Assembly: GCA_964361405.1 (NCBI GenBank)
Contig: CAYIAA010000002.1
Coordinates: forward strand, 5,299 to 69,298
Length of the DNA stretch: 64,000 bases
Direction: 5' to 3'
Source of the DNA: an uncultured Candidatus Saccharibacteria bacterium
GTDB lineage: Bacteria; Patescibacteriota; Minisyncoccia; Phycocordibacterales; UBA3531
The position numbers and the translations under genes are program-made. Of the stretch, positions 23,848 through 31,692 are shown one piece after another; the stretch's first letter is position 1, and every line of letters begins with the position of its first letter. The notes under the pieces were generated by a model. It saw nothing but the letters and a program-made list of their open reading frames with translations, searched no databases and was not told where the DNA came from.

Positions 23848-24753
23848 GTGTCACTCTATACGCACCAAGAAGCCAATGTCCGGAAGACATGGCTCCTCAT
23901 AACGTTTTTCCTCGTTCTTGTGACGAGCGTGGGGTATGCCTTCTCGCAAATTTACGGCAATCCCTCGATTGTTATCATCGCTTTTGCCGCGAGTGTGGTG
24001 ATGAGCGTCAGCTCCTACTGGTTCTCGGATAAAATTGTGATCGCTTCGATGGGCGCGCGAGTGCTTCCAGATGTCGAGGCGCCAGACCTTCACAACATCG
24101 TTGAAAATCTCGCTATTACCGCCGGTCTCCCCAAGCCGAGAATCTATATTGTGGATTCACCACAGCCAAACGCTTTTGCCACCGGCCGTGACAAAGAACA
24201 TGCCGTGGTCGCCGTCACAACTGGACTTCTCACACTACTTGACCATTCCGAGCTTGAAGGGGTGCTTGCGCATGAGCTCTCCCACGTTGGGAATCGGGAC
24301 GTGCTCGTTTCAACCGTCGTAGTAGTTCTTTTGGGGGCTGTCCAATTGCTCTCCGATTTTTTTCTTCGTTCTCTCCGCTTCGGTGGGCTTGGAGGAGGAC
24401 GAGATAGGAATTCTGGGCAAGCGCAAGCGATATTTTTTTTGTTAGGAATTGCTCTCGCCATTCTTGCGCCAATTGCGGCAGTATTGATTCAGCTCGCGGT
24501 TTCGCGGAAGCGTGAGTTTCTCGCGGATGCCTCGGGTGCCCTTTTAACGCGCTATCCCGATGGCCTTGCCTCGGCGCTCGAGAAGATTCATCGCGATCAT
24601 ACGCCAATGGGGCAAGCGAACCATGCAACGGCTCATCTCTGGTTTGATGACCCCTACCAGGGGAAGCAAAATACTGTCAAGTGGTTTGCAAAAATCTTCA
24701 TGACCCACCCACCGGTGGAAGACCGGATTGCCGCCCTCCGCGGAGAAAGGTAG
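23848..24753 (+). CDS. htpX: M48-family zinc metalloprotease (HtpX-like)
   Basis: HELSHVGNRD zinc motif, 4 TM segments; GTG start. Confidence 0.8.
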   Translation: MSLYTHQEANVRKTWLLITFFLVLVTSVGYAFSQIYGNPSIVIIAFAASVVMSVSSYWFSDKIVIASMGARVLPDVEAPDLHNIVENLAITAGLPKPRIYIVDSPQPNAFATGRDKEHAVVAVTTGLLTLLDHSELEGVLAHELSHVGNRDVLVSTVVVVLLGAVQLLSDFFLRSLRFGGLGGGRDRNSGQAQAIFFLLGIALAILAPIAAVLIQLAVSRKREFLADASGALLTRYPDGLASALEKIHRDHTPMGQANHATAHLWFDDPYQGKQNTVKWFAKIFMTHPPVEDRIAALRGER

Positions 24754-24815
24754 AGTGTTCACGGAAGGAAAGATATTTCAACATCGGGCTTTGCTTCTCA
24801 AGCAATTCTCCTATC

Positions 24816-24998
24816 CTCATTAAACAAGTTGCAGATGCATTTGGAAAAATGCAAATTATACCTCATATTGATAAGCGAGGACAAAATATCTATTTATATC
24901 GTGAGGATGCTGTTCAGCGATACCTAAAGCGATTTGGTACCTCAAACGAACGAATTAGTTCTGTGTATCGTTATTGGAAGGGTGCCAGAGTGGTCTAA
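24816..24998 (+). pseudogene. remnant of an excisionase/MerR-like HTH gene abutting tRNA-Ser
   Basis: In-frame peptide LIKQVADAFGK-MQIIPHIDKRGQNIYLYREDAVQRYLKRFG is homologous to the intact HTH gene at 31430-31636; it has no start upstream of helix 1 and its 3' end reads into tRNA-Ser. Confidence 0.3.
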
Positions 24999-25065
24999 TG
25001 GACATGCTTGGAAAGCATGCGTACGGGAAACCGTACCGGGAGTTCGAATCTCCCCCCTTCCGCCA
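24976..25065 (+). tRNA. tRNA-Ser (anticodon GGA), CCA encoded
   Basis: Acceptor GGAAGGG/CCCTTCC, anticodon stem CATGC/GCATG, loop TTGGAAA, long variable arm CGTACGGGAAACCGTACC, T-arm GGGAG-TTCGAAT-CTCCC, 3' GCCA. Confidence 0.85.
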
Positions 25066-25207: not shown

Positions 25208-25765
25208 ATGATTGCGAATGTCTATCTTCTTCTTTTCGTCGGACTTTTTCTCGGCGGGGAAACAGTCTTGATTCCGGCAGTCTATTTTGCCTTAAATGGT
25301 GATTTGGATTTGCTGACGCTCTTTGCTATCTCTATTTTTGCGACACTCATATCGGACTCTCTTTGGTATATGTTTGGTCGCGTCGCGAAATTTGACAGAA
25401 TCGCTCGGTGGCCAATCGTGGGGCGGCAAGCGGGCGTGATAGCAAAAATATCGGGGGTTTTCCGCGCGCACAGCTTGAAAATTCTTTTTGGATCAAAATT
25501 CGTCTACGGCACGAGAGTTGCGGCACAAATCCTTTCGGGTGCCTATGCTGTGCCTTTTTTCCACTACCTTCTTGTGAATATCGTTGGCGTCTTAGCACTT
25601 CAGGGATATATTGTTCTCCTTGCACTTTCTCTCGACCGCGGACTTGGAGAAGTTAAAGGTTTTTTCTACGGCACGGAAGTGTTTTTTGCGGTCTTTCTCG
25701 TATTTCTCATCGCACTCCACTTATGGATACACAAAACGGTAAAAAAACTTTGGTTTCAGCAATAA
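25208..25765 (+). CDS. DedA/SNARE-associated (VTT) family membrane protein
   Basis: Polytopic membrane protein; GETVLIPAVYF ... FGSKFVYGTRVAAQIL pattern. Confidence 0.55.
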   Translation: MIANVYLLLFVGLFLGGETVLIPAVYFALNGDLDLLTLFAISIFATLISDSLWYMFGRVAKFDRIARWPIVGRQAGVIAKISGVFRAHSLKILFGSKFVYGTRVAAQILSGAYAVPFFHYLLVNIVGVLALQGYIVLLALSLDRGLGEVKGFFYGTEVFFAVFLVFLIALHLWIHKTVKKLWFQQ

Positions 25766-26469
25766 TTCCTGCGTTTAACGAAGAGGAAACGATCGGTGAA
25801 GTTATTCACTCTGCCTCGAGACACCCGCTTATCGGGGAAATTCTTGTCGTTGACGATGGTTCCTCGGATCGGACTGCCGAGCGCGCTCGAGAGGCTGGCG
25901 CGCGGGTGATTTCCCTTTCTGAAAATTGCGGCAAGGCCGAAGCACTTGAAGCAGGTGTTCGCGAAGCTCTACATGACGTTCTTCTTTTCCTCGATGCTGA
26001 TATTTCCGGACTTACCCGAGAGTCTATACACCACCTTGTGATGCCTGTGGTAAGTGGCCGCCATGAACACTATGTTGGGCTCCGCGGCCGGAAGTTTTTT
26101 CTTCTCAACCGGTTTCTTCACCTCGTCCCCATTTTGGGTGGCGAGCGCGCACTTACTCGCAATCTCTGGGAACAGGTGCCACATGACTACAAGAAAGGGT
26201 TCCAAATCGAAATCGCTCTCAACTATTTTTCAAAAAAAACAAAAGGTAATATGGGGTTTGAAGTTATTCATGGACTTACCCACCGCACCAAGGAAAAGAA
26301 ATTTGGATTACTTGAGGGATTTCTGCGGCGTATTGGGATGTCGGGCGAGGTTCTTCTCATCGCGACGAAGCTCTATGTTTTGGAAGAGGTAAAACAAAAA
26401 TTCGCCACACTTTCGAAGTCGCTTCGGCTCCGTTGGGAGAATTCTCTCGTGCGAAGCAAGGATCTTTGA
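25723..26469 (+). CDS. glycosyltransferase family 2
   Basis: VSAIIPAFNEEETIGEVI ... VVDDGSSDRT ... LFLDADI (DxD); 43-nt overlap with upstream gene, alternative start TTG near 25750. Confidence 0.75.
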   Translation: MDTQNGKKTLVSAIIPAFNEEETIGEVIHSASRHPLIGEILVVDDGSSDRTAERAREAGARVISLSENCGKAEALEAGVREALHDVLLFLDADISGLTRESIHHLVMPVVSGRHEHYVGLRGRKFFLLNRFLHLVPILGGERALTRNLWEQVPHDYKKGFQIEIALNYFSKKTKGNMGFEVIHGLTHRTKEKKFGLLEGFLRRIGMSGEVLLIATKLYVLEEVKQKFATLSKSLRLRWENSLVRSKDL

Positions 26470-30992: not shown

Positions 30993-31020
30993 GAAAAGGT
31001 TATTTATACTCTAATTCGGT

Positions 31021-31366
31021 TTTGTGCCGGATAGGTGCTCTTCGCTTCATGCGGGGAGAGGAAAGTCCGAACACTCACACACGGAAGTGTGTAGCAAGGT
31101 AGCGGGTAACGCCCGTCGGGAGTAATCCTAGAGATGCGAACAGAGACGTTGCTCTCCGAAAGGAGAGCAACATCATCTGATAAATCAGATGATGAGTCCC
31201 GACAGAAATGTCGGGAGTGAAACGGCAAAATTCTTACCTGAGTGCAAGGCCGAGTCCCGCCTTTTGGCGGGAAGCGCCGCTTGATCCCCTCGGCGACGTC
31301 GGGACCAGATAGATACCTATCGTTCCGCTTTGAGCGGAATACAGAATTCGGCTTATAGGCACAAAG
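31021..31366 (+). ncRNA. rnpB: RNase P RNA (bacterial type A)
   Basis: P4 halves GAGGAAAGTCCGAAC ... and ... ACAGAATTCGGCTTATAGG; GGTAACGCC ... GGGAGTAA module; P1 pairing TTTGTGCC/GGCACAAA. Confidence 0.85.
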
Positions 31367-31382
31367 CAAGAACTATGAAAAA

Positions 31383-31429: not shown

Positions 31430-31636
31430 CTAGAGAAGCAAGGTCAAGGTGCCAGAGCGTTTTCTGGTGCCGTGTTTTTTTGCAAAGCGTTCAAGTTCTG
31501 CAACCCGGTAGATTCGGTAGCGGTTTTTACTACGCCGTGCCTTCAATTTCCCCGAGCGGTCCCAACCCCGAAGTGTTCCCACGGAGACCCCGAGGATTTC
31601 AGCTGCAGTTTGAATGGTGATGCCGCCTTTGAGCAT
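31430..31636 (-). CDS. excisionase/MerR-like helix-turn-helix DNA-binding protein (69 aa)
   Basis: ITIQTAAEILGVSVGTLRGWDRSGKLKARRSKNRYRIYRVAELERF; start chosen at M19 (ATG 31636); the TTG at 31690 would leave no divergent promoter space before murJ. Confidence 0.65.
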   Translation of the reverse strand: MLKGGITIQTAAEILGVSVGTLRGWDRSGKLKARRSKNRYRIYRVAELERFAKKHGTRKRSGTLTLLL

Positions 31637-31692
31637 GTAAATCGTGTTTTCCCCATCATACACCATCAGAAGAGCTGTGGTACTATTCAAAA

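What the first reader, a model, noticed from the sequence alone, without database searches (positions are those of the whole stretch)
24816..25065. Truncated excisionase-like HTH gene running into tRNA-Ser(GGA)
Between htpX and tRNA-Ser there is an in-frame peptide (LIKQVADAFGKMQIIPHIDKRGQNIYLYREDAVQRYLKRFG) clearly homologous to the intact HTH gene at 31430-31636 (ITIQTAAEILGVSVGT ... RYRIYRVAELERFAKKHG). It lacks a start codon before helix 1, and its reading frame continues into the first 23 nt of the tRNA. An excisionase or MerR-type HTH next to a tRNA is the usual residue of a tRNA-targeting integrative element whose integrase has been lost.
Basis: seen in the sequence. Interest (0 to 1): 0.5.

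Follow-up and report, generated by a model that had tools for sequence, protein, structure and literature searches.

The report
Homing-endonuclease relic fused to tRNA-Ser
The short reading frame that runs into tRNA-Ser(GGA) is not a leftover excisionase but the decayed tail of a selfish LAGLIDADG homing-endonuclease gene, from a family that in Patescibacteria always sits against this tRNA and borrows the tRNA's first bases for its last codons and stop codon.

Summary
The frame is real. It runs 24681-24998 on the + strand, has no ATG before 24849, and its TAA stop lies 23 nt inside tRNA-Ser(GGA) (24976-25065). The claimed homology to the HTH gene at 31430-31690 fails: no BLASTP alignment, hhalign probability 1.4%, no Pfam HTH hit.

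The peptide instead matches two-motif LAGLIDADG homing endonucleases. These run 189-213 aa as called and about 225 aa from the conserved upstream ATG. Database E-values reach 1e-23, and tblastn of full-length members against the window gives 1e-25. The window keeps only the last ~71 codons and has lost both catalytic motifs.

In 76 of 80 metagenomic loci with a full-length gene, tRNA-Ser(GGA) follows directly, and the stop codon usually lies 14-64 nt inside the tRNA. No intron ribozyme was found, and there were no hits in viral contigs.

Upstream of many full-length genes lies a 5' fragment of a different tRNA-Ser variant, then an inverted repeat and an extended -10 promoter. This suggests the cassette is inserted inside the tRNA gene and carries a replacement 5' segment.

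Verdict: the window holds an inactive relic of a selfish element. The family's architecture appears undescribed in the library searched and is moderately interesting.

The parts
23848..24753 (+). htpX (Peptidase_M48), the left neighbour. Its stop codon lies 11 nt before the first remnant codon that aligns with the endonuclease family.
   Evidence: ORF list. Homologues of this gene in related loci are Pfam Peptidase_M48. LemA-htpX lies upstream of tRNA-Ser(GGA) in many Patescibacteria.
24754..24764 (+). Deletion junction: 11 nt between the htpX stop and the first codon that aligns with the endonuclease family.
   Evidence: Alignments A1-A3 and tblastn limits. The left-end parts seen in intact loci (tRNA 5' fragment, inverted repeat, extended -10 promoter, ~133 codons) are absent here.
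24765..24974 (+). Relic of the LAGLIDADG homing endonuclease gene: 70 codons (KERYFNIGLCF...SSVYRY), equivalent to about residues 134-202 of a 208-aa member. Both catalytic LAGLIDADG motifs are missing.
   Evidence: Homologues at E 1e-17 to 1e-23. tblastn with six full-length members gives E 6e-18 to 1.7e-25. All 24 invariant or nearly invariant family columns in this stretch are kept, and identity to the consensus is 69% against 67.8+-6.8% for intact members.
24975..24998 (+). Tail of the frame, dictated by the tRNA gene: W-K-G-A-R-V-V-stop. tRNA +1 is the second base of the Trp codon, and the TAA lies in the D-loop.
   Evidence: Sequence. The same tails (W[KR][GD]ARVV and others) occur in family members. 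Among the 76 metagenomic loci with a tRNA detected, 71 have a stop 14-64 nt inside the tRNA.
24849..24998 (+). 49-aa ORF (P0001) that sources of the protein collection (NCBI, Logan, ENA) call from the only in-frame ATG. It lies wholly inside the relic.
   Evidence: No name or function is given, and there is no evidence of expression.
24976..25065 (+). Intact tRNA-Ser(GGA) with CCA encoded. Its 5' part, GGAAGGGTGCCAGAGTGGTCTAATGG, is the D-arm variant typical of endonuclease-occupied loci.
   Evidence: ARAGORN and Rfam at 54.8 bits. The first 45 nt are identical to the tRNAs of L121 (full-length gene) and one base different from L084 (relic) and L109 (full-length gene).
31430..31690 (-). It is unrelated to the relic.
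   Evidence: Pfam HTH_17 1.4e-10 and MerR 1.8e-10. It has its own conserved homologues. hhalign against the relic family gives 1.4%.

Best explanation
The stretch 24765-24998 is what remains of a free-standing, intron-less LAGLIDADG homing endonuclease gene that once sat directly 5' of tRNA-Ser(GGA).

Shown for intact relatives:
- The gene encodes a monomeric two-motif enzyme. Motif 1 is GIMxGDGG and motif 2 is VRGLxDTDGC.
- It has no stop codon of its own. The reading frame enters the tRNA gene and stops at a UAA, UGA or UAG that happens to lie in the D-arm or further in.
- At the left end of many intact cassettes lies a 5' fragment (positions 1 to ~26) of a different tRNA-Ser(GGA) sequence variant. 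The order is: a -10-like box, the fragment, an inverted copy of its D-arm, an extended -10 promoter, then the ATG.

Inferred mechanism:
- The enzyme cuts an unoccupied tRNA-Ser(GGA) gene in its 5' half.
- Repair copies the cassette into the break.
- The cassette restores the gene because it carries a replacement 5' tRNA segment, or a whole tRNA, of a variant the enzyme does not cut. That segment doubles as the end of its own coding sequence.
- Once fixed, the endonuclease is useless and decays.

In this genome, a deletion running from just after the htpX stop codon to about codon 133 removed the tRNA fragment, the promoter, the whole N-terminal domain and the second LAGLIDADG helix. What is left cannot be a nuclease. 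At most it serves as 5' leader DNA for the tRNA. Erosion is bounded on the left by htpX and on the right by the tRNA, which is why the tRNA-proximal end survives.
For: Identity of the fragment:
- The 76-aa query finds five proteins at 59-66% identity, E 1e-17 to 5e-23.
- A profile search finds 127 relatives. The full-length ones are 189-213 aa, and some are annotated as LAGLIDADG or intein/homing endonuclease.
- Pfam LAGLIDADG_3 is above the curated cut-off in six of the eight family members tested: the five full-length proteins at 23.3-37.1 bits and the 138-aa truncated P0012 at 25.8, against a cut-off of 22.5.
- An AlphaFold model of P0019 has pLDDT 93.8. Its best PDB match is I-Tsp061I (2dch, E 5.6e-12, TM 0.71), followed by I-AniI, the bI3 maturase, E-DreI and I-OnuI.
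- The window fragment aligns without gaps to the last ~71 residues and keeps every conserved column.

Link to the tRNA:
- All five closest homologues lie directly upstream of tRNA-Ser(GGA) or at a contig end.
- 76 of 80 metagenomic loci have tRNA-Ser(GGA) on the same strand at the end of the gene.
- The stop lies 14, 15, 16, 23, 24, 44, 47 or 64 nt inside the tRNA in 71 of these 76 loci.
- Upstream genes vary: htpX directly, htpX plus 0.7-1.6 kb of other genes, or no htpX at all.

Free-standing: Rfam finds no intron in 20 loci.

Mobility and decay:
- 0 of 30 htpX-tRNA-Ser loci from species-representative genomes carry the gene.
- Endonuclease identity tracks host HtpX identity only weakly (Spearman 0.24). 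Hosts with 80-83% identical HtpX carry endonucleases only 53-59% identical.
- Stray tRNA fragments occur. L110 has a 19-nt 5' fragment after the gene, then an intact tRNA of the other variant. L099 has the gene plus only ~24 nt of tRNA. L007, L096 and L128 have extra 3' fragments.
- Many relics have different 5' break points, and internal-deletion forms keep both ends.

Left-end architecture:
- 13 of 62 unique upstream regions hold a near-complete tRNA 5' fragment, against about 0 expected.
- About 40 of the 62 hold a CTAG-centred inverted repeat at a fixed distance from the start, 18 of them with perfect arms of 8 nt or more.
- 31 of the 62 hold TGnTATAAT within 40 nt of the start.

tRNA variant association: occupied loci split 62:14 between the 'UG' and 'UC' D-arm variants, unoccupied loci 10:20, Fisher p 4e-6.
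Against: - No cleavage assay exists. Target site, cut position and current mobility are inferred.
- The tRNA-variant association is not corrected for phylogeny.
- The inverted repeat at the left end shows no covariation above shuffles (142/500), so its role is unknown.
- The searches used C-terminal profiles and patterns. They could not have found relics that keep only the N-terminal end, so the apparent rule that the tRNA-proximal end always survives is partly ascertainment.
- The window fragment is as close to the family consensus as intact genes and has no internal stop. This fits a recent deletion but does not exclude selection on the fragment.
- Nearest sampled relatives are only ~69% identical in DNA and synonymous sites are saturated, so the age of the truncation cannot be estimated.
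- How this tRNA is transcribed after loss of both upstream promoters is unknown. The consensus scan finds no sigma-70-like site on the + strand.
Confidence: 0.88

Rival explanations
1. One reading: a truncated excisionase or MerR-type HTH gene, paralogous to the gene at 31430-31690, left by a tRNA-targeting integrative element that lost its integrase.
For: A local similarity exists between YLYREDAVQRYLKRFG and YRIYRVAELERFAKKHG: Smith-Waterman score 39-44, p about 0.002 against shuffles of this one pair. The fragment does abut a tRNA.
Against: - No BLASTP alignment at E<=100.
- The score is what the best of 2784 six-frame chunks is expected to reach.
- hhalign gives probability 1.4%, and there is no Pfam HTH hit.
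- Strong, full-length homology to LAGLIDADG endonucleases explains every residue.
- There are no att repeats.
- The fragment lies 5' of the tRNA, while integrase islands lie 3'.
Confidence: 0.01
2. A chance open frame in AT-rich intergenic DNA with no coding history.
For: The region is 36-41% G+C against about 50% for neighbouring genes. It has no canonical start or obvious ribosome-binding site.
Against: E-values of 1e-23 against 5.8 billion proteins and 1.7e-25 by tblastn. All 24 invariant or nearly invariant family columns within the retained stretch are kept.
Confidence: 0.01
3. The fragment is kept because it now does something. It might be a small protein (the 49-aa ORF from ATG 24849, or a longer product from a non-canonical start), for example a DNA-binding half-domain that shields the tRNA gene from related endonucleases. 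Or it might be DNA or RNA needed for transcription or 5' processing of tRNA-Ser(GGA).
For: - The frame is intact over 78 codons, and its identity to the family consensus equals that of intact genes.
- Many lineages keep the same tRNA-proximal part.
- Both upstream promoters seen in intact loci are deleted here, so the tRNA needs another source of transcription.
- No terminator is predicted between htpX and the tRNA.
Against: - By the model, the retained piece lacks the LAGLIDADG helix and the first beta strand of its domain, so it is unlikely to fold alone.
- A cluster of residues never seen in intact members (AFGKMQ in place of IFEEFG) includes the very ATG.
- Third codon positions vary freely just upstream of the tRNA, for example TAT/TAC. 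This argues against a conserved DNA signal there (by eye).
- Retention of the tRNA-proximal end follows simply from deletions being unable to enter the tRNA.
- The database search could only see open frames, which biases the sample.
Confidence: 0.1

Closest known systems
Monomeric two-motif LAGLIDADG homing endonucleases of rRNA group I introns: archaeal I-Tsp061I (PDB 2dch) and I-DmoI, and the LAGLIDADG genes in rRNA insertion sequences of CPR bacteria (PMC11270868)
   Same: Same fold and two-motif organisation with conserved acidic residues. Sporadic distribution with decayed copies. Same host phylum for the CPR rRNA cases.
   Different: Here no intron ribozyme surrounds the gene. The target is a tRNA gene, not rRNA. 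The ORF ends inside the target gene, and a duplicated 5' piece of the target flanks the cassette. Sequence similarity to solved enzymes is marginal: E 0.0025, 21% identity.
Free-standing homing endonucleases of T4-like phages that work by intron-less homing, such as SegB in the T4 tRNA gene cluster and SegF (own knowledge of the literature; not read here)
   Same: No intron or intein. The gene sits between or next to host genes. Spread is presumed to occur by double-strand-break repair with co-conversion of flanking markers, and the donor is protected by sequence differences in the target.
   Different: Those enzymes are GIY-YIG proteins in phage genomes and do not share codons with a tRNA. 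This family is LAGLIDADG, chromosomal in Patescibacteria, and absent from 2.9 million viral contigs.
Integrase-type genomic islands and prophages that integrate into tRNA genes
   Same: A mobile element targets a tRNA gene and keeps it functional by bringing a replacement copy of the displaced segment. Partial tRNA copies mark the borders.
   Different: Integrase elements replace the 3' part of the tRNA and lie downstream of it, with a tyrosine integrase and often an Xis/HTH. Here the duplicated part is the 5' end, the element lies upstream, and there is no recombinase or att repeat.
Group I introns in tRNA genes of Patescibacteria (PMC13011429)
   Same: Same phylum, and tRNA genes act as landing sites for selfish elements. 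A few of those introns carry endonuclease genes.
   Different: Those are ribozyme introns in the anticodon loop of tRNA-Asn and tRNA-Asp, and their endonucleases are HNH. That paper mentions no tRNA-Ser or free-standing LAGLIDADG case.

Membership tests
LAGLIDADG homing endonuclease (the gene family the relic derives from) | Significant sequence match to a LAGLIDADG family model | tested here: met
   Six of the eight family members tested reach or exceed the Pfam LAGLIDADG_3 cut-off of 22.5 bits, scoring 23.3-37.1. The window frame alone reaches only 13.7 bits, E 0.075. It is tied to the family by E 1e-23 and 1.7e-25.
LAGLIDADG homing endonuclease (the gene family the relic derives from) | Two alpha-beta-beta-alpha-beta-beta-alpha domains packed through the LAGLIDADG helices | tested here: met
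   The AlphaFold model of P0019 has pLDDT 93.8 and pTM 0.86. Foldseek top hits are all LAGLIDADG enzymes, with 2dch at TM 0.71 and E 5.6e-12. This is a prediction, not an experiment.
LAGLIDADG homing endonuclease (the gene family the relic derives from) | Conserved acidic residue at the end of each LAGLIDADG motif | tested here: met
   GDGG is present in all 26 full-length sequences, and DTDG is nearly invariant (alignment A3).
LAGLIDADG homing endonuclease (the window copy as an active enzyme) | The copy itself carries the motifs and a complete domain | tested here: not met
   The window keeps only the columns after the second motif and first strand: no GDGG and no DTDG. It is a relic, not an enzyme.
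LAGLIDADG homing endonuclease (the gene family the relic derives from) | Site-specific cleavage of the unoccupied target and copying into it (homing) | not testable with these tools
   Only indirect signs are available: patchy distribution, weak agreement with the host marker, stray tRNA fragments and decayed copies.
Excisionase / MerR-type HTH (Pfam HTH_17, MerR) | Match to the HTH profile, or to the window's own HTH gene | tested here: not met
   No Pfam HTH hit at E<=10. No BLASTP alignment. hhalign gives 1.4%.
tRNA-targeting integrative element (integrase type) | Direct repeat of part of the tRNA (att) bounding an island, and a recombinase gene | tested here: not met
   Neither tRNA end recurs anywhere in the 64 kb at up to 3 mismatches. 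No local repeats were found. Judged by their translations, the ORFs from 22 to 34 kb look like housekeeping genes; only three of them, all on the htpX-tRNA flanks, were run against Pfam, and the rest of the window was not screened for recombinases.
Intron-encoded endonuclease (group I or II intron) | A ribozyme structure around the gene | tested here: not met
   No intron family reaches the Rfam gathering score in the window or in 20 occupied loci.

The most novel reading that the evidence does not exclude
Patescibacteria harbour an undescribed kind of intron-less LAGLIDADG homing cassette that invades the tRNA-Ser(GGA) gene itself, near the D-arm/anticodon-stem junction.

- It leaves the resident 5' ~26 nt stranded upstream.
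- It rebuilds a working tRNA from a replacement 5' segment that it carries.
- That segment is also the last 4-21 codons and the stop codon of the endonuclease.

One consequence would follow. RNase P cleavage at tRNA +1 would cut the stop codon off the endonuclease mRNA, so tRNA maturation and endonuclease expression would compete.

The window holds a decayed copy of this cassette.
Probability: 0.45. Interest if true: 0.75.

Novelty: new variant of a known kind. Interest (0 to 1): 0.55.

Why it matters
For this genome the matter is small. A 'hypothetical protein' of 49 aa should be annotated as a homing-endonuclease pseudogene, and there is no hidden integrative island here.

The family it belongs to is more interesting.

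- It would be a bacterial, chromosomal, intron-less LAGLIDADG endonuclease with a single, highly conserved target: one tRNA gene.
- It appears to solve the problem of inserting into an essential RNA gene without an intron, by bringing a replacement 5' segment that doubles as its own coding end.
- That would add a new way in which selfish endonucleases coexist with essential genes.
- It would explain sequence-variant turnover of tRNA-Ser(GGA) in these reduced genomes.
- It offers compact (~190-225 aa) monomeric meganuclease scaffolds with a predictable target.
- It warns annotators that ORFs ending inside tRNA genes can be real.

Tried and rejected
- **HTH homology:** tested by BLASTP, Smith-Waterman with shuffles and a window-wide six-frame null, Pfam and hhalign. 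Rejected.
- **Peptide against 80 htpX loci of related genomes:** tblastn found nothing. Full-length endonucleases against the same loci also found nothing.
- **Phage origin:** no relative in the viral contig collection.
- **Intron context:** Rfam finds none.
- **att-like repeats or stray tRNA pieces in the window:** none. One search returned nothing only because I mistyped the pattern.
- **Promoter or terminator between htpX and the tRNA:** no + strand hit. I could not show a conserved promoter inside the gene's 3' end; codon third positions vary there.
- **Selection on the left-end hairpin as a structure:** covariation is not above shuffles, although by eye some arms seemed to co-vary. I withdraw that impression.
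- **Dating the truncation by dN/dS:** synonymous sites are saturated and the nearest relative is 69% identical. L167, which shares the unusual FGK residues, is no closer (~68%) and is itself a frameshifted pseudogene.
- **A trace of the tRNA 5' fragment at the window junction (24740-24765):** the resemblance is weak and falls in htpX's last codons. Not claimed.
- **Shared deletion break point with L083:** considered as evidence for an ancient, selected truncation. Rejected because relics show many different break points.
- **Organism name:** the cluster look-up gave none.

Full report
**1. What is at the coordinates**

The window looks like a Patescibacteria (Parcubacteria-type) genome. The best HtpX relatives in species-representative genomes are 55-67% identical, and most of them come from that group.

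- htpX ends at 24753. tRNA-Ser(GGA) occupies 24976-25065, with CCA encoded.
- One frame is open from 24681, inside htpX, to a TAA at 24996-24998.
The only in-frame ATG is at 24849.
- The stop lies 23 nt inside the tRNA, in its D-loop. tRNA position +1 is the second base of a Trp codon.
- A contig assembled independently from run ERR3858115 is identical over 1739 nt across the htpX-remnant junction and into the start of the tRNA.

The descriptive half of the observation therefore holds.

**2. The claimed HTH homology does not hold**

The comparator gene (31430-31690, minus strand) is a genuine HTH_17/MerR protein at E 1e-10. The comparison with the peptide fails at every level.

- BLASTP finds no alignment between the two peptides at E<=100.
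- The best local alignment scores 44. It ranks first among 2784 six-frame chunks of the window, but four chunks score 39, and the tail predicts about one hit at 44 or above by chance.
- A profile-profile comparison of the two families gives probability 1.4% over 19 columns.
- The only Pfam hint for the frame was LAGLIDADG_3 at E 0.075.

**3. What the peptide really is**

- A search of 5.8 billion proteins with 76 residues of the frame returned the locally annotated 49-aa ORF plus five proteins at 59-66% identity (E 2e-17 to 5e-23). They begin at or near MDTDGC, a LAGLIDADG motif.
- A profile of these found 127 relatives. The complete ones are 189-213 aa as called, and about 225 aa from the conserved upstream ATG.
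- The complete ones carry two motifs, GIMxGDGG and VRGLxDTDGC, and pass the Pfam LAGLIDADG_3 cut-off. Where named, they come from Patescibacteria.
- A model of one member (pLDDT 93.8) matches monomeric LAGLIDADG enzymes. I-Tsp061I is the best hit (TM 0.71, E 5.6e-12), followed by I-AniI, the bI3 maturase, E-DreI and I-OnuI.
- Full-length members hit the window only at 24765-24995, with residues ~134-208 of 208, at E down to 1.7e-25.

The window thus keeps the last ~71 codons of the gene's own sequence: one strand, a helix, two strands and the terminal helices of the C-terminal domain. It has neither catalytic motif.

**4. The link with the tRNA is a property of the whole family**

- Four of the five closest homologues lie directly against tRNA-Ser(GGA). 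The fifth ends at a contig edge, inside what reads as the first bases of the tRNA.
- Of 80 metagenomic loci with a full-length gene, 76 have tRNA-Ser(GGA) on the same strand at the gene's end. Of the other four, three are cut off by the contig end within 42 nt of the gene. The fourth (L099) has only the first ~24 nt of the tRNA, followed by unrelated DNA.
- In 71 of the 76 loci the stop codon lies 14-64 nt inside the tRNA. This explains the recurrent C-terminal tails W(K/R)(G/D)ARVV and ...ARAVEWATLER, the latter reading through the GGA anticodon.
- Upstream genes vary: htpX adjacent, htpX plus other genes, or no htpX. The downstream genes tested from the window have no match in these loci.
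- Rfam finds no intron in 20 such loci, and the viral collection holds no relative.

**5. Signs of a selfish life cycle**

- None of 30 htpX-tRNA-Ser loci from species representatives carries the gene.
- Endonuclease and HtpX identities correlate only weakly (Spearman 0.24, Mantel r 0.37). Hosts with 80-83% identical HtpX carry endonucleases that are 53-59% identical.
- Decayed copies are common and are broken at many different points. Some are internal deletions that keep both ends (P0082, P0140). One (L167) is frameshifted and sits next to an internally deleted tRNA.

**6. Architecture of intact cassettes**

This part is new to me, and I found it in none of the papers I could search. Upstream of the start codon, 62 unique loci give the consensus ATAGTGGTCTAGTGC - 12-18 nt - GCACTAGACC - aa - TGnTATAAT - ~7 nt - ATG.

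- The first block is the D-arm of a tRNA-Ser.
- In 13 loci the complete 5' 26 nt of a tRNA-Ser (GGAGGCGTCGCATAGTGGTCTAGTGC, at most 5 mismatches) is present, against about zero expected. In several loci it has a -10-like box of its own upstream.
- This fragment is of the 'UC' D-arm variant. In 10 of these 13 loci the intact tRNA downstream of the gene is of the 'UG' variant. Two (L095, L110) carry the 'UC' variant, and one (L123) ends before the tRNA.
- Across loci, occupied sites split 62 'UG' to 14 'UC', and unoccupied sites 10 to 20 (Fisher p 4e-6, not corrected for phylogeny).
- L110 carries, after the gene, a 19-nt 'UG' 5' fragment, then 26 nt, then an intact 'UC' tRNA. L007, L096 and L128 have extra tRNA 3' fragments.

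The simplest reading is as follows. The cassette sits inside a tRNA-Ser gene near position 26. It brings a replacement 5' segment, or a whole tRNA, of a variant that the enzyme presumably does not cut.

The inverted repeat is conserved: 81% of cells are paired, against 26-37% when the partner is slid. Covariation is not above shuffles (142/500), so I cannot say that it acts as a structure.

**7. Back to the window**

- Everything left of codon ~133 is gone: the tRNA fragment, the inverted repeat, the promoter and the N-terminal domain. The relic starts 11 nt after the htpX stop.
- Its tRNA is of the 'UG' variant. Its first 45 nt are identical to the tRNA of L121 (full-length gene) and differ by one base from those of L084 and L109.
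- The retained codons are 69% identical to the family consensus, against 67.8+-6.8% for intact genes. All conserved columns are kept.
- Eight residues are never seen in intact members, four of them within the six-residue stretch AFGKMQ, which supplies the ATG of the annotated ORF.
- Divergence from every sampled relative is large (at most 69% DNA identity, synonymous sites saturated), so the deletion cannot be dated.

I read the fragment as an inert relic. It survives because deletions can enter neither htpX nor the tRNA. A residual role as tRNA leader or promoter DNA, or as a small protein, is not excluded, and I give it about 10%.

**8. Comparison with what is known**

- The papers I could search describe LAGLIDADG genes in rRNA insertions of CPR bacteria (PMC11270868), and group I introns, with HNH genes, in tRNA-Asn and tRNA-Asp of Patescibacteria (PMC13011429). 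Neither mentions a free-standing LAGLIDADG gene at tRNA-Ser.
- In mechanism the nearest analogue is intron-less homing by the free-standing Seg endonucleases of phage T4. This rests on my own knowledge.
- In logic the nearest analogue is integrase islands that carry a replacement piece of their target tRNA, but with the opposite end of the tRNA and no recombinase.

**9. Verdict**

- The window feature is an ordinary pseudogene of an unusual family, and the family's architecture deserves a look by someone who can do the cleavage assay.

Noticed in passing
window 31019-31371 (+): Bacterial RNase P RNA class A (132 bits, E 3e-40). It lies 58 nt from the 3' end of the convergent small HTH_17/MerR gene (31430-31690, minus strand). 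In L143 an RNase P RNA lies ~600 nt downstream of the tRNA-Ser.
   Followed up: no
L010:4979-5239: In a related genome the htpX-tRNA-Ser gap holds an 86-aa GIY-YIG catalytic-domain ORF (Pfam 1.7e-14). Its last codons and stop also lie 15 nt inside tRNA-Ser(GGA). A second nuclease family therefore shows the same overlap at the same tRNA.
   Followed up: partly
L084:565-981: An HNH endonuclease ORF (Pfam 1.2e-05, above cut-off) lies 138 nt downstream of the tRNA-Ser that carries a LAGLIDADG relic upstream.
   Followed up: no
L001-L060, between htpX and tRNA-Ser(GGA): The htpX to tRNA-Ser(GGA) order is widely conserved in Patescibacteria, but the gap ranges from 17 to 2084 nt. By their sequences the cargo looks variable: a pyruvate-kinase-like gene, GGDEF-like proteins, membrane proteins and a DUF7387 protein. 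Only the GIY-YIG (L010) and DUF7387 (L054) ORFs were checked against Pfam.
   Followed up: partly
L007:5847-5875: A locus without the endonuclease has a second, orphan tRNA 3' fragment (T-arm plus acceptor end) 37 nt after its intact tRNA-Ser. From that point on it is 90% identical to the occupied locus L160. This looks like the scar of a tRNA replacement.
   Followed up: partly
L167:1200-1770: A frameshifted, nearly full-length endonuclease pseudogene is followed by a tRNA-Ser that lacks its D and anticodon arms, and then by another tRNA 3'-end fragment ~150 nt further on. The 3' ends are identical to the window's tRNA.
   Followed up: partly
L086-L165, 20-70 nt upstream of the endonuclease start: A conserved CTAG-centred inverted repeat (GGTCTAGTGC ... 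GCACTAGACC) lies between the stranded tRNA 5' fragment and the extended -10 promoter. Its function is unknown, and no significant covariation was found.
   Followed up: yes
window 24800-24950: The relic is 36% G+C against about 50% in the flanking genes, which fits a foreign origin or relaxed constraint.
   Followed up: no
window 25208-25765 and 25723-26469 (+): The VTT/DedA-like gene downstream of the tRNA (Pfam 32.5 bits, just below the 33.9 cut-off) overlaps the next ORF by 43 nt. By its sequence that next ORF looks like a glycosyltransferase.
   Followed up: no
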